Below, piece by piece: positions 13,103 to 31,211 of a stretch of DNA of 64,000 bases. Origin of the DNA: a virus (taxonomy: Duplodnaviria > Caudoviricetes); the IMG/VR virus record IMGVR_UViG_3300021978_000001, positions 1 to 64,000 of that record. The stretch is one strand, 5' to 3'. A program made the translations under genes and the position numbers. Every line of letters starts with the position of its first letter. Position 1 is the stretch's first letter. Under the pieces are notes generated by a model, which worked only from the letters and a program-made list of their open reading frames with translations, made no database searches and had not been told where the DNA came from.

Positions 13103-13616
13103 GGAACAGACCCCACAAAGGTGGGGAACATGAAGCGACTTTTGCGCCCGTCGATAGGCGCTGGGGACCATCCCCGCATGCGCGGGGAGCATGCGATCTG
13201 CTCGCGAGTATGCCCAGGATGAGCAGAACCATCCCCACAAGGGTGGGGAACATGTCGGCAGCCCGTGCGTACCAAAAAGATGGGCGGCGCCATCCCCGCA
13301 AGGGCGGGGAACACTTGGCGCCCACACAACGCCAGATGAAAGGCACGGGACCATCCCCGCATACGCGGGGAACACTTTCTTCACTCATCTCGTATCCTTT
13401 TCACAGGACCATCCCCGCACACGCGGGGAACACTGTTCTTTGTAGATGAGTTCTTGCAGTTCTTTGGGACCATCCCCGCACGCGCGGGGAACACCTCGGA
13501 GACTACAACCTGAAGATTGCGGACGTGGGACCATCCCCGCACGCGCGGGGAACACTCGCCCGGTGAGCTTTCGATATTCGACCCCTTGGGGCCATCCCCG
13601 CACGCGCGGGGAACAC
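13103..13616 (-). CRISPR. type I-E array 1 (9 repeats, 8 spacers) downstream of cas8e-cas11
   Basis: 28-bp repeat GTGTTCCCCRCNNNNGYGGGGATGGTCC at mostly 61-bp period; degenerate trailer at 13103. Confidence 0.95.
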
Positions 13617-13637
13617 TCTGAGACAACCTGTCACACC
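13617..13637 (-). promoter_or_regulatory. short leader, family A (TGTGACA-N3-TGTCTCAGA)
   Basis: same repeat-proximal sequence at 17019 and 23280, variant at 18126. Confidence 0.7.
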
Positions 13638-13650
13638 AGGGCACACCAGG

Positions 13651-15828
13651 TCAGGCGCTCTTGACGAGTCCTTCCTCTTCCTGCGTCTGCATCTTGAAGT
13701 AAGCGCGCGTCCACTCGTCCTTGGTGTCCTGATCCCAGGTCAGCAGGCTCAGGAGCAGGTCTTCACGGCTCCCGCCCGCCCCTTCGAGCATCGAGAGACA
13801 CGTCAACATCTCGCGCCACACACCCTCGGGCTTGCGGTGCGCGAGGAGCTGGTGGAAGCGGTGTTCGAGGATGCGCTTGCCCGATGCCATGCAGCGCGCG
13901 ACCTTGGCCTTGCCACGGAAGTCTTCGGGCGCAACCCTCGCCATCGCCTTGGCCATGAGCGCGATGCAGTCCGTGTCCACCTTGTCCTCACCAAAGACAG
14001 ACTCGATGATGGTCAATACCTTGATGTAGAAGGGGATGACCTTCGTGGCTTCGAGCGAGCGCGCGGCGAGCAGGGCTTGACGGTCCGCGCCACGCACATG
14101 GTGCAGCGTCATCCAGTGCTTGTAGAGCATGGGGAGGAACTCATCTTTGCGGGCGTAGATTTGGCGGTGCATGGCGTCCTTCTTGGTCTGGTACGTGATG
14201 CCCAGCTTTTGGGCGATGGTGTCGGAGAGCTTGACGCGCTCCAGGTAGGAGGAAGTCGTCCCCGAATACTGCCCCACGACGAAATCGTAGGGGTGCTTGA
14301 CGTGCGAGAGGTGTTTGTTGAACTGCATGAACACCTCATCGGCCAGGGCGCGGTTGAAGCGCGGCAAGACCTCCTCGGTGTAGGTGTCCACGTCATCGGC
14401 GCGACGCACACCCATCACCAGATTGTCAAGGTGCTTGCTCATGAGGAGATCGAGCGGCGTGAGAAGCCTGGTTTTCGTTTTCCCTGCCACCTTTTTGTAA
14501 AGCCCGAGCCTCTCCGCCGTCGCGTCGAGATACCAATCCATTTCACGGATGCTTTCGAGCGCGTGGCTCAATGCGTCTCGTACAGCGGCAGCGTTCTTCC
14601 CGAAGAGAAGAGGGATCGTGGTATCCGTGCGCCCACGAATGATGCCTTGCTTGGCGTGCAAGGCCGTGACGCGAACGCGCGGGACACCGTTGCTCCACAC
14701 ATCGTAGATGTAGTCCAGATCAGCCATGCGCGCGGCGAGGTGCCTCAGTACAGGCACGCCCGGCGTGTGTTGGTCGAGGTAGATCGCTTTCCACGCCGAT
14801 GTTCCGAGCGTGTCATCCTGGGGCGCCTGGAGGATGCGCTCGCCGTCCTGCTTGCCTTTCGAGTACGTGGGGATGGTCGCGTTTTGCGGCCTGATCCAGA
14901 GACCCTCGTACTTGATCGCGCTCCCCTTCCCGCCGTTCTCATCTCGGAGCTTTTTGTAAAGCTCGTCCTGCGCGGGGCTGATGTAGATGAAGTGAATGAG
15001 GCCGTTCTCATCGGGGTCGGGAACCATGTACTCGCGCCATGGCACCAGAATCCCGAGCAAGGGGTGATGGTCTGCGGTGTGCAGAGCCAGACTGTCCCAT
15101 TTCCCCTTCTTGGTATACAAAGCGCGGAGCTTTGGCGGCTTGATCCAGGGGAGCGTGAAGTCGAGCGTCTTCTTGTGACCCCACAACTCGTCCATCTCGC
15201 TTCGCAGCAAGAGGTTACTGGTGAGGGTCTCCCAGAGGTCACGCCCCTGGAGCGTGAAGGACACTTCCGCGTTGGTGTCGCGCGTTCCCGATCCCCTGCC
15301 ATATGCGTTGCTCCCCAGGCTCATGTGGTCGAGCGCGGTGATATGAGCGATGACGTCGGGGACTTCCAGGGACATGTGGTAGTCCACGTCATCCCCGAGG
15401 CCCCAGGGACGCTGCTTCCCTGGGTAGTCGTGACCGTACTTGTCCGCAGCGACGCACGAACCGAGCGCGTGCGGACTCAGTGCTTCCTTCCATTTCTCCT
15501 GGAGGGCATACTCACGGTTCTCGGGGACGGTCTGAAGCGCGCGTGGGCCATCACCAAAGAAGTTGAAATCCTTGATGTGGGGTGCGAGCGCTTCGGTAAG
15601 CTCCGGGCGCTCCAGGATCATATCTTCCCACTCCTCGTTGGTCTCGGGAGGAGTCAGGTATTGGAGCATGGCGATGAGGAAGTGCTCGATCCCCTGGCTC
15701 CATGCCGCGAAGTCGTAGTCGAGCTGCAAGCCCTCCTCACGGAGACCGTCGAAGCTCACGAGCTTTTTCTCCCCTTTGGCATCGCAGACGCGGATGAAGG
15801 GGTCTGTCAGTAGGTTGAGTTGCGTCAT
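13651..15828 (-). CDS. cas8e: Cas8e (Cse1/CasA) fused to C-terminal Cas11 (Cse2/CasB)
   Basis: N-terminus LNLLTDPFIRV typical of CasA; last ~170 aa (RILEHRFHQLL...DLLLSLLTWDQDTKDEWTRAYF) typical of Cse2; one 725-aa ORF. Confidence 0.8.
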   Translation of the reverse strand: MTQLNLLTDPFIRVCDAKGEKKLVSFDGLREEGLQLDYDFAAWSQGIEHFLIAMLQYLTPPETNEEWEDMILERPELTEALAPHIKDFNFFGDGPRALQTVPENREYALQEKWKEALSPHALGSCVAADKYGHDYPGKQRPWGLGDDVDYHMSLEVPDVIAHITALDHMSLGSNAYGRGSGTRDTNAEVSFTLQGRDLWETLTSNLLLRSEMDELWGHKKTLDFTLPWIKPPKLRALYTKKGKWDSLALHTADHHPLLGILVPWREYMVPDPDENGLIHFIYISPAQDELYKKLRDENGGKGSAIKYEGLWIRPQNATIPTYSKGKQDGERILQAPQDDTLGTSAWKAIYLDQHTPGVPVLRHLAARMADLDYIYDVWSNGVPRVRVTALHAKQGIIRGRTDTTIPLLFGKNAAAVRDALSHALESIREMDWYLDATAERLGLYKKVAGKTKTRLLTPLDLLMSKHLDNLVMGVRRADDVDTYTEEVLPRFNRALADEVFMQFNKHLSHVKHPYDFVVGQYSGTTSSYLERVKLSDTIAQKLGITYQTKKDAMHRQIYARKDEFLPMLYKHWMTLHHVRGADRQALLAARSLEATKVIPFYIKVLTIIESVFGEDKVDTDCIALMAKAMARVAPEDFRGKAKVARCMASGKRILEHRFHQLLAHRKPEGVWREMLTCLSMLEGAGGSREDLLLSLLTWDQDTKDEWTRAYFKMQTQEEEGLVKSA

Positions 15829-15831
15829 CGG

Positions 15832-30310: not shown

Positions 30311-30608
30311 GCTTGAGAACTACCCTCGGTTGAGGCGGGACGGCGGAGATTCTCGTGCGGTCAGGCGTGGTGCTCACGACATAGGAGAGCTTGTCGATCT
30401 TGGCCTTTGCCGCATACATGCTATGGGCATCCTCGAACTCCATAACCACGCAAGGAATCACGTAGAGAGGCTCGCCCTCTTCGAGCTTCCCATGCAAGGT
30501 ATCTGCGAGGACACGTAGGAGCTTGACTTTAGCGAGCACTTCGGCGCGTCCCGCGACCGAGGGTTGCTGGGAGGGCGTCAGGGTGATATACAAGCGGTAC
30601 TGAAACAT
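30303..30608 (-). CDS. small protein, possible subtilase prodomain/I9-like fold
   Basis: LYVIPCVVMEFED...IDKLSYVVSTTPD pattern; resembles 31323-31595. Confidence 0.45.
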   Translation of the reverse strand: MFQYRLYITLTPSQQPSVAGRAEVLAKVKLLRVLADTLHGKLEEGEPLYVIPCVVMEFEDAHSMYAAKAKIDKLSYVVSTTPDRTRISAVPPQPRVVLKPS

Positions 30609-30620
30609 GCGATGTCCTTT

Positions 30621-30905
30621 TCAGATGAGGTGATAGTGCTCGTCCTTGCGAATCTTGGAGATCTGAATCGCAGCACGGTACTTTGCCTCGGGAATGCGCC
30701 CACACGAGGCAATCATTGTACGGCGCCCCTCGGTGTCGGTGAAGTATACCAAAAAGGGAGGGTTCCTCCTCTTCGAGAGGGGAGAACGTTTGATCGCGAA
30801 CGCGCCTTCGGGAGAGGTCGTGTGATAGGACATCCACTCGCCATCATCATGTGATTGCCACTCCAGCTCATTCAAGATGCGGTCAGGGTTTTTTTCCGTT
30901 GTCAT
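30621..30905 (-). CDS. small hypothetical phage protein
   Basis: MTTEKN start with AAAGGAAG RBS right after the array 8 trailer; weakly like the TLTW family. Confidence 0.6.
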   Translation of the reverse strand: MTTEKNPDRILNELEWQSHDDGEWMSYHTTSPEGAFAIKRSPLSKRRNPPFLVYFTDTEGRRTMIASCGRIPEAKYRAAIQISKIRKDEHYHLI

Positions 30906-30919
30906 GTCTTTCTTCCTTT

Positions 30920-31211
30920 GTGAAATCCCCGCATATGCGGGGAATACGAGACTCGTGTACTGCACGAGGAACCGTGTACTGCACGAGGAACGGGGGATCG
31001 GGACCATCCCCACATGCGTGGGGAACACTTCGGACTCCAGTTCGAGGTCTATAACCGGGAGGGACCATCCCCGCATGCGCGGGGAACACATTGCCCTAAC
31101 AACCGTCCCTGAAACTCCCGCAGGACCATCCCCACATGTGTGGGGAACCCAGACGATCCCACACCAGAACTTCCCATACCGGGGGACCATCCCCGCACGC
31201 GCGGGGAATAC
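30920..31211 (-). CRISPR. type I-E array 8 (5 repeats, 4 spacers)
   Basis: repeats at 30920, 31001, 31062, 31123, 31184. Confidence 0.93.

What the first reader, a model, noticed from the sequence alone, without database searches (positions are those of the whole stretch)
13103..31211. Extremely heterogeneous repeats whose hairpin is preserved by compensatory and G-U changes
Array 1 alone has 7 stem-loop variants among 9 repeats. The stem switches between CCCCGC/GCGGGG and CCCCAC/GTGGGG, and single repeats carry paired double changes: CTCCGC/GCGGAG (16747), CCCTGC/GCAGGG (23402), TCCCAC/GTGGGA (16638, 19643, 28660). The 4-nt loop is nearly free. The three one-sided stem changes (23464, 25538, 26133) all give U-G wobbles on the minus-strand RNA but would be mismatches on the plus strand, which independently supports minus-strand transcription. 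Normal arrays keep near-identical repeats because Cas1-Cas2 copies the leader-proximal repeat (established). Possible causes (inference): selection on Cas6 structure recognition with anti-recombination diversification, hairpin template-switch correction, or repeat-spacer units gathered from several donor arrays.
Basis: partly seen in the sequence, partly recalled or inferred. Interest (0 to 1): 0.78.

Follow-up and report, generated by a model that had tools for sequence, protein, structure and literature searches.

The report
Giant-phage CRISPR arrays with non-identical repeats
A 437-kb marine phage carries its own CRISPR system without the spacer-inserting enzymes, and its roughly 80 repeats nearly all differ in sequence while keeping the same RNA hairpin, giving a natural map of what the repeat-cutting enzyme Cas6e tolerates.

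Summary
Window 13.1-31.2 kb holds 52 type I-E repeats: nine mini-arrays plus one solo repeat, interleaved with cas3, cas7, cas6e, cas5 and a cse1-cse2 fusion on the minus strand. About 26 more repeats lie elsewhere in the 437-kb phage genome. No cas1 or cas2 was found.

Of 76 ungapped repeats, 60 are distinct 28-mers, yet 99% of stem cells pair. Four of seven pairs show double changes, and no shuffle out of 500 reached this. The core stem has 25 compensated changes, 4 G.U wobbles (RNA sense only) and no one-sided mismatch. Decaying Streptomyces I-E arrays show the opposite pattern.

One correction: the loop is not free. It is RYRY in 78% of repeats and YYYY in 13%.

Four related strains keep the trailer units but differ completely in leader-side spacers and hairpin cores. 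Adjacent repeats are identical mostly next to the leader. The leaderless mini-array at 25.5 kb has swapped its whole interior between conserved outer repeat flanks.

Best reading: these are working crRNA arrays under RNA-level selection by Cas6e. Their heterogeneity comes from missing homogenisation and from gain or exchange of units that arrive with a different hairpin core. How that variation is generated is unresolved.

This scan noted similar all-different I-E repeats in other giant phages (e1-370604, e1-1907849).

The parts
13104..13616 (-). Array A1: 9 repeats, 8 spacers, 7 hairpin variants. The leader side is at the high coordinate and the terminal repeat at 13104 is degenerate.
13651..15828 (-). 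cse1 (cas8e) fused to cse2 (cas11), 725 aa
   Evidence: Pfam PF09481 E=1.4e-15 and PF09485 E=5.4e-6
15832..16605 (-). cas5
   Evidence: Pfam PF09704 E=9.5e-38
16638..17018 (-). Array A2: 7 repeats. It includes CTCCGC/GCGGAG at 16747 and the terminal TCCCAC/GTGGGA at 16638.
17051..17776 (-). cas6e (CasE/Cse3). The catalytic His motif and the glycine-rich loop align with E. coli CasE.
   Evidence: Pfam PF08798 E=1.6e-26; PDB alignment to 4qyz_K
17789..18125 (-). Array A3: 6 repeats. The last spacer and the last two repeats are conserved in strains L132 and L135.
18181..19671 (-). cas7 (the called product is 465 aa, so the real start is probably downstream of 19671)
   Evidence: Pfam PF09344 E=4.9e-50
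19643..19671 (-). Solo repeat with TCCCAC/GTGGGA stem and a 5-nt loop, between cas3 and cas7
19718..22339 (-). cas3 (HD nuclease plus helicase)
   Evidence: Pfam PF18019 and PF22590
23018..23279 (-). Array A4: 5 repeats. The repeat at 23128-23157 is 30 nt, with one extra G-C pair in the stem.
23402..23491 (-). Mini-array A5: 2 repeats (CCCTGC/GCAGGG, and CCCCAT/GTGGGG with a U.G wobble)
25473..25628 (-). Leaderless mini-array A6: 3 repeats, starting directly after a gene's stop codon. Its interior is replaced in strains L003 and L144 while the outer flanks are conserved.
25889..26282 (-). Array A7: 7 repeats with a class II leader. The repeat at 26133 carries a U.G wobble (CCTCGC/GCGGGG).
26283..26399 (-). 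Class II leader of A7. It is one of three copies in the window (with 29057-29173 and 31212-31328), and two more lie at 405 and 408 kb.
   Evidence: (family D9)
28660..29056 (-). Array A8: 7 repeats, all with different hairpins. The spacer at 28873-28905 is 88% identical to the A7 spacer at 25917-25949.
29057..29173 (-). Class II leader of A8
30920..31211 (-). Array A9: 5 repeats. The repeats at 31062 and 31001 differ only by the paired G-C to A-U change.
31212..31328 (-). Class II leader of A9

Best explanation
These are working type I-E crRNA arrays of a huge phage that encodes the interference and processing proteins (Cas3, Cas7, Cas6e, Cas5, Cse1-Cse2) but no Cas1-Cas2.

The arrays are transcribed from the minus strand. 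Cas6e binds the 7-bp stem and tetraloop of each repeat and cuts at its 3' base. Selection therefore acts on the RNA shape, on the outer stem and on the 8-nt 5' handle (AUGGUCC plus one base), and much less on the fifth base pair and the loop. This part is shown by the covariation and the strand asymmetry.

The heterogeneity arises because nothing homogenises the repeats, and because units are gained or exchanged together with their own hairpin core. The probable route is recombination anchored in the conserved leader or in the outer repeat flanks (TTCCCC and GGGGATGGTCC), drawing on a pool of diverged arrays in related phages or hosts. Slow drift in place adds to it. Now and then the leader-proximal repeat is copied in the classical way, probably by a host Cas1-Cas2 acting in trans. 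This second part is inference from comparing strains.
For: Shown:
- A complete I-E effector set sits on the same strand as the repeats. Cas6e keeps the catalytic His and the glycine-rich loop.
- No cas1 or cas2 is found in the complete 437-kb genome.
- 99% of stem cells pair, 4 of 7 pairs covary, and 0 of 500 shuffles reach this.
- The core stem has 25 compensated changes against 4 one-sided ones. All 4 are G.U in the RNA sense, and there is no one-sided mismatch.
- 77 of 78 repeats fold into the full hairpin.
- Sister strains give 26 compensated changes, 3 G.U and 2 mismatches.
- Non-RYRY loops are pyrimidine-rich and never purine-rich in the RNA sense.
- Control: heterogeneous Streptomyces I-E arrays carry mostly uncompensated changes, for example L123 with 75 G.U, 26 unpaired and 1 double change.

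Supporting the exchange or gain model:
- In four related strains at 87-97% identity, the last spacer and last repeats of A2, A3, A4, A7 and A8 are conserved, while the leader-side units differ in spacer and hairpin core.
- Successive leader-side repeats differ by 108 hairpin positions over 33 repeats. At most about 19 are expected if each were a copy of its neighbour evolving at background rate.
- Leaderless A6 has different spacers, and different loops in both bounding repeats, in three strains, although the outer flanks are identical.
- The window's penultimate A8 repeat is what a one-unit deletion between two L142 repeats would leave.
- Adjacent repeats are identical in 10 of 53 cases against 4% of random pairs (P about 1e-4). 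Seven of the ten lie within the first two steps from the leader, which is the signature of classical first-repeat duplication.
- A distant relative (a 366-kb contig) with the same leader has ordinary homogeneous arrays, so the machinery itself does not force heterogeneity.
Against: - No donor array was found. All spacers shared between strains sit in the same array at the trailer end, and only one diverged spacer pair (A7/A8) links two arrays.
- The excess of changes per added unit assumes that the leader-side units were gained after the strains split. Differential loss from long, ancient arrays would also fit.
- Some orthologous repeats changed their loop in place with unchanged flanks. The A8 terminal repeat has CCTT here and ACAT in a 97%-identical strain. 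This points to short-patch conversion or local mutagenesis rather than import of whole units.
- Neither expression nor processing has been shown.
Confidence: 0.55

Rival explanations
1. Pure drift in place. The arrays are old, the phage cannot add spacers, and each repeat has drifted independently at neutral sites under Cas6e constraint. Strains differ because each has lost different units from long ancestral arrays.
For: - Orthologous penultimate A2 repeats carry loops CTCT, CCTT and CGTT in different strains, with intact stems.
- Orthologous A7 repeats differ by 1-2 transitions.
- The tolerated states recur in all combinations, as expected near saturation.
- No cas1 or cas2 was found.
Against: - An excess of identical adjacent repeats at the leader end indicates recent duplication.
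- Trailer-conserved, leader-variable arrays are the classical sign of polar gain.
- Loss alone needs ancestral arrays of 15 or more units for A2, where present arrays hold 4-6 spacers.
- Trailer repeats of A3 are identical between strains at 94% identity, so drift in place is slow.
Confidence: 0.2
2. Selected diversification against recombination. Identical 28-bp direct repeats would let the phage's recombination system delete spacers or the cas genes lying between arrays, so variants that break up identity are favoured or survive longer.
For: - The longest exact match between adjacent repeats has a median of 11.5 nt. Only 3.8% of all repeat pairs in the genome share 20 nt or more.
- The cas genes lie between direct-repeat arrays.
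- Heterogeneity increases away from the leader, as survivorship would predict.
Against: - Adjacent repeats are more similar than random pairs, not less, and 10 of 53 adjacent pairs are identical.
- This explains the retention of variants, not where they come from.
- There is no measurement of recombination.
Confidence: 0.12
3. DNA-level correction of the palindrome. A mutation in one arm is copied to the other arm by intrastrand template switching during replication, giving paired changes in one step without RNA-level selection.
For: - No G.U or A.C intermediate occurs at the frequently switching fifth pair among the 76 repeats of this genome.
- Four pairs of 28-mers differ at exactly, or almost exactly, the two paired positions.
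- One paired insertion lengthens the stem at 23128.
Against: - One-sided changes are G.U in the RNA sense only. A DNA mechanism is strand-symmetric.
- Loops are pyrimidine-rich but never purine-rich.
- A sister strain does carry an uncorrected A.C intermediate at L135:6092.
- The Streptomyces arrays have the same palindrome yet accumulate uncompensated changes.
Confidence: 0.08
4. Decaying, non-functional arrays or an assembly artefact.
For: Terminal repeats are degenerate, and no targets were found for the spacers tested.
Against: - 99% of stem cells pair and there is no one-sided mismatch, unlike truly decaying arrays.
- The cas genes are intact and conserved in four strains.
- An independent assembly gives the identical sequence.
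Confidence: 0.03

Closest known systems
Canonical type I-E CRISPR-Cas (E. coli K-12 Cascade with CasE; Thermus thermophilus HB8 Cse3/Cas6e with the R2 repeat)
   Same: - Same effector gene families.
- 28-29-nt repeat with a 7-bp stem and tetraloop, followed by an 8-nt 5' handle.
- 32-33-nt spacers at a 61-nt period.
- Leader at one end and a degenerate terminal repeat at the other.
- The fifth stem pair that toggles here (G-C or A-U) is the one that, from my memory of the published repeats, differs between the E. coli and Thermus repeats.
   Different: - No cas1 or cas2.
- cse1 and cse2 are fused.
- The cas genes are separated by mini-arrays.
- 60 distinct 28-mers among 76 repeats, instead of near-identical repeats.
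- The Cas proteins are very divergent: Cas7 is 28% identical to its best cellular hit, and Cas6e scores E=5e-5 against E. coli CasE.
CRISPR-Cas loci of huge phages without adaptation genes (Al-Shayeb et al. 2020, PMC7162821)
   Same: A huge phage with compact arrays (median six repeats in that paper) that lacks Cas1, Cas2 and Cas4. The role proposed there is against competing phages or host genes.
   Different: That paper does not describe heterogeneous repeats or arrays interleaved with cas genes.
Compensatory base changes between CRISPR repeat families (Kunin et al. 2007, PMC1896005)
   Same: Stem substitutions are accompanied by compensating changes and G:U pairs. The Ecoli cas subtype goes with structured repeat cluster 2.
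   Different: [quoted passage not shown] Here the same kind of covariation is seen within one genome and even within one array.
Heterogeneous type I-E arrays of Streptomyces and other actinomycetes
   Same: Same repeat family (matches to GTTCCCCRC-N4-GYGGGGATGGTCC), with many different repeats per array, for example 70 hairpin variants in 98 repeats in L123.
   Different: Their changes are mostly one-sided (G.U or mismatches) and doubles are rare (0-4 per locus). In the phage, doubles dominate and there are no one-sided mismatches.
Engineered non-repetitive guide arrays
   Same: Guides are separated by processing elements that differ in sequence but keep their function, which lowers recombination between repeats (recalled from the synthetic-biology literature, not checked here).
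   Different: Those are designed. Here the pattern is natural, and selection for it has not been shown.

Membership tests
Type I-E CRISPR-Cas | Cas3 with HD nuclease and helicase domains | tested here: met
   PF18019 E=7.6e-30 and PF22590 E=3e-29 at 19718-22339
Type I-E CRISPR-Cas | Cascade subunits Cse1 (Cas8e), Cse2 (Cas11), Cas7, Cas5 and Cas6e | tested here: met
   PF09481 plus PF09485 (fused), PF09344, PF09704 and PF08798, all above the curated cut-offs
Type I-E CRISPR-Cas | Adaptation module Cas1-Cas2 | tested here: not met
   PF01867, PF09707 and PF09827 give no match in the complete 437-kb genome, while control genomes are detected
Type I-E CRISPR-Cas | Repeat of 28-29 nt with a stable stem-loop, spacers of 32-33 nt | tested here: met
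   61-nt period and 33-nt spacers. 77 of 78 repeats fold into the 6-7-bp hairpin, with a mean of -13.5 kcal/mol.
Type I-E CRISPR-Cas | Cas6e cleaves the repeat and crRNAs guide interference | not testable with these tools
   Only the conserved catalytic His and glycine-rich loop could be checked.
Ordinary CRISPR array | Repeats within an array are near-identical copies of the leader-proximal repeat | tested here: not met
   60 distinct 28-mers among 76 repeats, and 31 hairpin variants among 50 window repeats. Only 10 of 53 adjacent pairs are identical.
Decaying or orphan array | Uncompensated substitutions accumulate in the stem | tested here: not met
   No one-sided mismatch and one U.U cell in 456 core-stem cells. 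The Streptomyces controls show 4-47 unpaired cells per locus.
Huge-phage CRISPR-Cas without adaptation genes | Phage genome over 200 kb with cas effector genes, compact arrays and no cas1, cas2 or cas4 | tested here: met
   A 437,490-bp virus record with terminal repeats, a baseplate J gene next to the arrays, arrays of 2-9 repeats, and no cas1 or cas2. cas4 was not searched.

The most novel reading that the evidence does not exclude
Huge phages that lack adaptation genes keep their guide libraries current by a route that does not use Cas1. Ready-made repeat-spacer units, or just hairpin-to-hairpin cassettes, are swapped between arrays of co-infecting phages or hosts. The swap is by recombination anchored in the conserved outer parts of the repeat or in the leader. 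The result is naturally non-repetitive arrays in which each unit keeps the hairpin core of its donor. Because such arrays resist repeat-mediated deletion, the phage can afford to place them between its cas genes.
Probability: 0.3. Interest if true: 0.8.

Novelty: new variant of a known kind. Interest (0 to 1): 0.62.

Why it matters
- The roughly 150 natural repeats from this phage and its strains are a ready-made mutational scan of a Cas6e substrate. They show which positions must stay fixed (outer four stem pairs, 5' handle), which pair may switch only in a compensated way, and that loop positions 2 and 4 must be pyrimidines. These predictions can be tested directly in vitro.
- They challenge the textbook picture that arrays are homogeneous because each new repeat is copied from its neighbour. 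Here units turn over between close strains, yet each arrives with a different hairpin core, so some other mode of array renewal or repeat rewriting is at work in phages that lack adaptation genes.
- Natural arrays whose repeats share only about 11 nt of exact identity could guide the design of stable multiplex guide arrays.
- The scan has noted similar arrays in other giant phages, so this may be a general property of phage-borne type I systems. I found no description of it in the papers I searched.

Tried and rejected
- Near-identity searches of the arrays and of the flanking 24 kb against cultured-phage records gave no match.
- Rfam gave nothing at gathering score.
- A protein-based search for Cas6e in IMG/VR found none. 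A search with the Cas7 alignment in JGI metagenomes also found none.
- The repeat pattern in IMG/VR found only two unrelated contigs, with 1 and 3 repeats.
- Spacer targets: three leader-proximal spacers scanned in IMG/VR gave no match. All spacers blasted against the phage's own genome and the fetched relatives gave only chance-level matches of 14-18 nt.
- Expression: no RNA holder was listed for this stretch.
- Whether the distant relative has cas1 could not be asked, because the record is not held.
- Hairpin inversion as the source of loop variants (GCAT/ATGC and similar): rejected. Reverse-complement partners are very unequal (GCGT 8 against ACGC 0, GTAT 10 against ATAC 1), and YYYY loops have no RRRR partners.
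- Pairing between loop positions 1 and 4: not supported. A..C combinations are not depleted, with 8 seen and about 4 expected.
- A pure transition bias as the explanation for RYRY loops: background ts:tv between strains is only 1.2-1.6, so a constraint is needed.
- Over-dispersion of neighbouring repeats, the direct prediction of anti-recombination selection: the opposite was found.
- A simple 'fossil record' model, in which the first repeat mutates and is then copied: it needs reversals in A7 and far too many changes per step.

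
Full report
**What is there.** The window is the first 64 kb of a complete 437,490-bp virus record with direct terminal repeats. A baseplate J gene lies just beyond the region. 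Between 13.1 and 31.2 kb I find 52 copies of a 28-nt repeat. On the plus strand it reads GGACCATCCCCRC-N4-GYGGGGAACAC. On the minus strand it reads GTGTTCCCCRC-N4-GYGGGGATGGTCC, which is the usual orientation of type I-E repeats. The copies form nine mini-arrays of 2-9 repeats at a 61-nt period, plus one solo repeat. The core pattern occurs 38 times in the window against none in 100 shuffles.

The arrays alternate with minus-strand genes for Cas3, Cas7, Cas6e, Cas5 and a Cse1-Cse2 fusion. No Cas1 or Cas2 profile matches anywhere in the genome, although the same searches detect control genomes. About 26 further repeats, all in the same orientation, lie at about 110, 120-128, 149, 405 and 408 kb. 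An independent Logan assembly (L136) is 100% identical over 6.3 kb that includes two arrays, so the heterogeneity is not an assembly artefact.

**Check of the observation.**
- Array 1 has seven stem-loops in nine repeats.
- The paired double changes are at 16747, 23402, 16638, 19643 and 28660.
- The three one-sided changes are at 23464, 25538 and 26133.

On an ungapped alignment of 76 repeats from the whole genome (A5) there are 60 distinct 28-mers, yet 99.0% of stem cells form standard pairs. Four of the seven pairs carry changes on both sides (24 cells), and none of 500 column shuffles reaches these values. Sliding the 3' arm by 1-3 columns drops pairing to 43-75%. In the six core pairs I count 25 compensated changes, four one-sided changes that are all G.U in the minus-strand RNA, one U.U cell and no one-sided mismatch.

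All 78 repeats, including the two with indels, fold into the hairpin, 77 of them completely. The one-sided variants are 1.4-3.9 kcal/mol more stable in the minus-strand sense. The repeat at 23128 carries a 2-nt insertion that adds a G-C pair.

As a control I used heterogeneous I-E arrays of Streptomyces and relatives, fetched with the same repeat pattern. They are as variable, but their changes are one-sided. L123, for example, has 75 G.U, 26 unpaired and 1 double change. The phage pattern is therefore not what neutral decay of this repeat looks like.

**Correction on the loop.** The loop is variable (22 different tetraloops) but not free. 59 of 76 are purine-pyrimidine-purine-pyrimidine and 10 are all-pyrimidine. 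Positions 2 and 4 are pyrimidines in 75 and 74 of 76. Background transition:transversion ratios between strains are only 1.2-1.6, so mutational bias alone does not explain this. The non-RYRY loops are pyrimidine-rich in the RNA sense and never purine-rich. This is a second strand-specific signal, in addition to the G.U asymmetry. I found no sign of pairing between loop positions 1 and 4, nor of loop inversion.

**How many independent compensatory events.** The G-C to A-U switch at the fifth pair accounts for most of the double changes, so cell counts overstate the number of events. However, the same loop occurs with both stems in six cases (GCGT, GCAT, CTTT, CCTT, ACAT, CTCT). Several pairs of 28-mers differ at exactly the two paired positions, for example 31062 and 31001, which are neighbours. 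Together with the doubles at three other pairs and one transversion pair (CCCCTC/GAGGGG at 123.5 kb), at least six independent paired changes are needed, and probably many more.

**Strand and function.** Six lines of evidence agree on minus-strand transcription and Cas6e processing:
- The cas genes are on the minus strand.
- Conserved leaders lie at the high-coordinate end of each array. There are two classes.
- Degenerate terminal repeats lie at the low-coordinate end.
- The orientation matches the canonical I-E repeat.
- One-sided changes are G.U wobbles in that sense only.
- Loops are pyrimidine-rich in that sense only.

The phage Cas6e is distant from solved homologues (E=1.6e-7 to 7e-4). 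It aligns with E. coli CasE across the catalytic histidine motif and the glycine-rich loop. According to the literature, Cas6e reads both sequence and shape through the major groove at the base of the stem (PMC3902920). That fits the invariance of the outer four pairs here.

**Where the heterogeneity comes from.** I recovered four related strains from public assemblies:
- S1: L003, L133 and L134, 87-91% identical to the window.
- S2: L132 and L142-L144, 94-97% identical.
- S3: L135 and L141, 93-95% identical.
- L136, which is the identical phage.

All keep the same gene order with arrays between the cas genes, and all have heterogeneous, compensated repeats: 26 doubles, 3 G.U and 2 mismatches, one of which is an A.C intermediate in a leader-proximal repeat.

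In A2, A3, A4, A7 and A8 the last one or two spacers and the last repeats are shared between strains. Everything nearer the leader differs in both spacer and hairpin core. Within this genome, adjacent repeats are identical in 10 of 53 cases against 4% of random pairs (P about 1e-4). Seven of the ten lie within the first two steps from the leader. That is the footprint of classical duplication of the first repeat, presumably by a host integrase acting in trans.

Most successive leader-side repeats, however, differ at 2-6 of 16 hairpin positions. That is 108 changes over 33 repeats in the window and S2, where even a generous background rate predicts fewer than 20. The A7 series would also need reversals. 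So new units are not simply mutated copies of their neighbours. The caveat is that some of these units may be old and differentially lost.

The clearest case is the leaderless mini-array A6. In three strains the sequence outside the two bounding repeats is conserved, and 35 nt downstream are identical. The spacers, their number, and the loops of both bounding repeats are all different. That looks like replacement of a hairpin-to-hairpin cassette, with crossovers in the conserved outer parts of the repeats. Unit loss by recombination between repeats is also visible: the window's penultimate A8 repeat matches a fusion of two L142 repeats.

Slow drift in place occurs as well. Orthologous A2 repeats have loops CTCT, CCTT and CGTT, and the A8 terminal repeat changed CCTT to ACAT with unchanged flanks. 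The second of these suggests very short conversion tracts.

A distant relative, a 366-kb contig, has the same class II leader. Its cas6e, cas5 and cse1 genes are contiguous and its arrays are homogeneous. The repeat family and leader therefore do not themselves impose heterogeneity.

**What I could not settle.** No donor array was found. All shared spacers are orthologous, apart from one diverged pair linking A7 and A8 (4 transitions in 33 nt), whose four flanking repeats all share the rare ATGTT start. No protospacers were found for three spacers tried. The source of the variants is therefore open between three possibilities: many donors, rewriting of the hairpin core at or after integration, or deep age.

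Anti-recombination selection may help variants persist. The median exact identity between neighbouring repeats is 11.5 nt. Its direct prediction, that neighbours are over-dispersed, fails. Palindrome correction at the DNA level cannot explain the strand asymmetries.

**Comparison with what is known.**
- Huge phages with CRISPR loci that lack adaptation genes and carry compact arrays are known (PMC7162821).
- I found no paper describing compensated repeat heterogeneity within a phage genome. My searches cover open-access text only.
- Earlier notes of this scan report all-different I-E repeats with a conserved hairpin in two other giant phages (e1-370604, e1-1907849). I did not test these.

**Verdict.** I rate it a new variant of a known kind.

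Noticed in passing
L003:2850-2884 and L003:4061-4088; window 21887-21914: A spacer in the sister strain's A4 array matches 28 of its 35 nt exactly within that strain's own cas3 gene, preceded by AA and then C. It matches the window's cas3 at 27 of 28 positions. The last 7 nt do not match. It may be a partial self-match used for regulation, or a guide against relatives. The window's own A4 lacks it.
   Followed up: partly
window 13617-13650, 17019-17050, 23280-23310 versus 26283-26399, 29057-29173, 31212-31328: There are two unrelated leader classes. Spacers behind class II leaders mostly begin with G, as for the AAG PAM of E. coli. Those behind class I leaders mostly begin with C or T. A9 is an exception.
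   Followed up: partly
L138 (metagenome contig Ga0306866_1000002, 366 kb): A distant relative has the same class II leader. Its cas6e, cas5 and cse1 genes are contiguous, with no arrays between them, and it has an ordinary homogeneous 8-repeat array. The interleaving of arrays with cas genes is therefore specific to the window's clade.
   Followed up: partly
window 13651-15828: Cse1 (Cas8e) and Cse2 (Cas11) are encoded as one 725-aa protein. The fusion is conserved in all four strains.
   Followed up: partly
window 25917-25949 and 28873-28905: Two spacers in different arrays are 88% identical, with four transitions between them. All four flanking repeats share the rare ATGTT start but have different loops, and one has a different stem pair. 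This is either a duplicated unit that has diverged or two captures of related targets.
   Followed up: partly
window 30948-31000: A 53-nt 'spacer' contains a perfect 19-nt tandem duplication (30954-30991).
   Followed up: no
window 25031-25744: A minus-strand ORF of 237 aa with no Pfam match contains about 2.8 copies of a 45-nt (15-aa) tandem repeat at 25072-25199.
   Followed up: no
genome 120214, 123515, 127052-128072, 148855 (outside the window): Solitary repeats with intact or compensated hairpins (CCCCTC/GAGGGG, CACCAC/GTGGTG) lie scattered in a tRNA-rich region. Earlier notes of the scan place them inside tRNA-like genes.
   Followed up: no
window 1736-8614: A very large ORF of 2292 aa lies upstream of the CRISPR region and is conserved in the sister strain (L133). 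It was not analysed.
   Followed up: no
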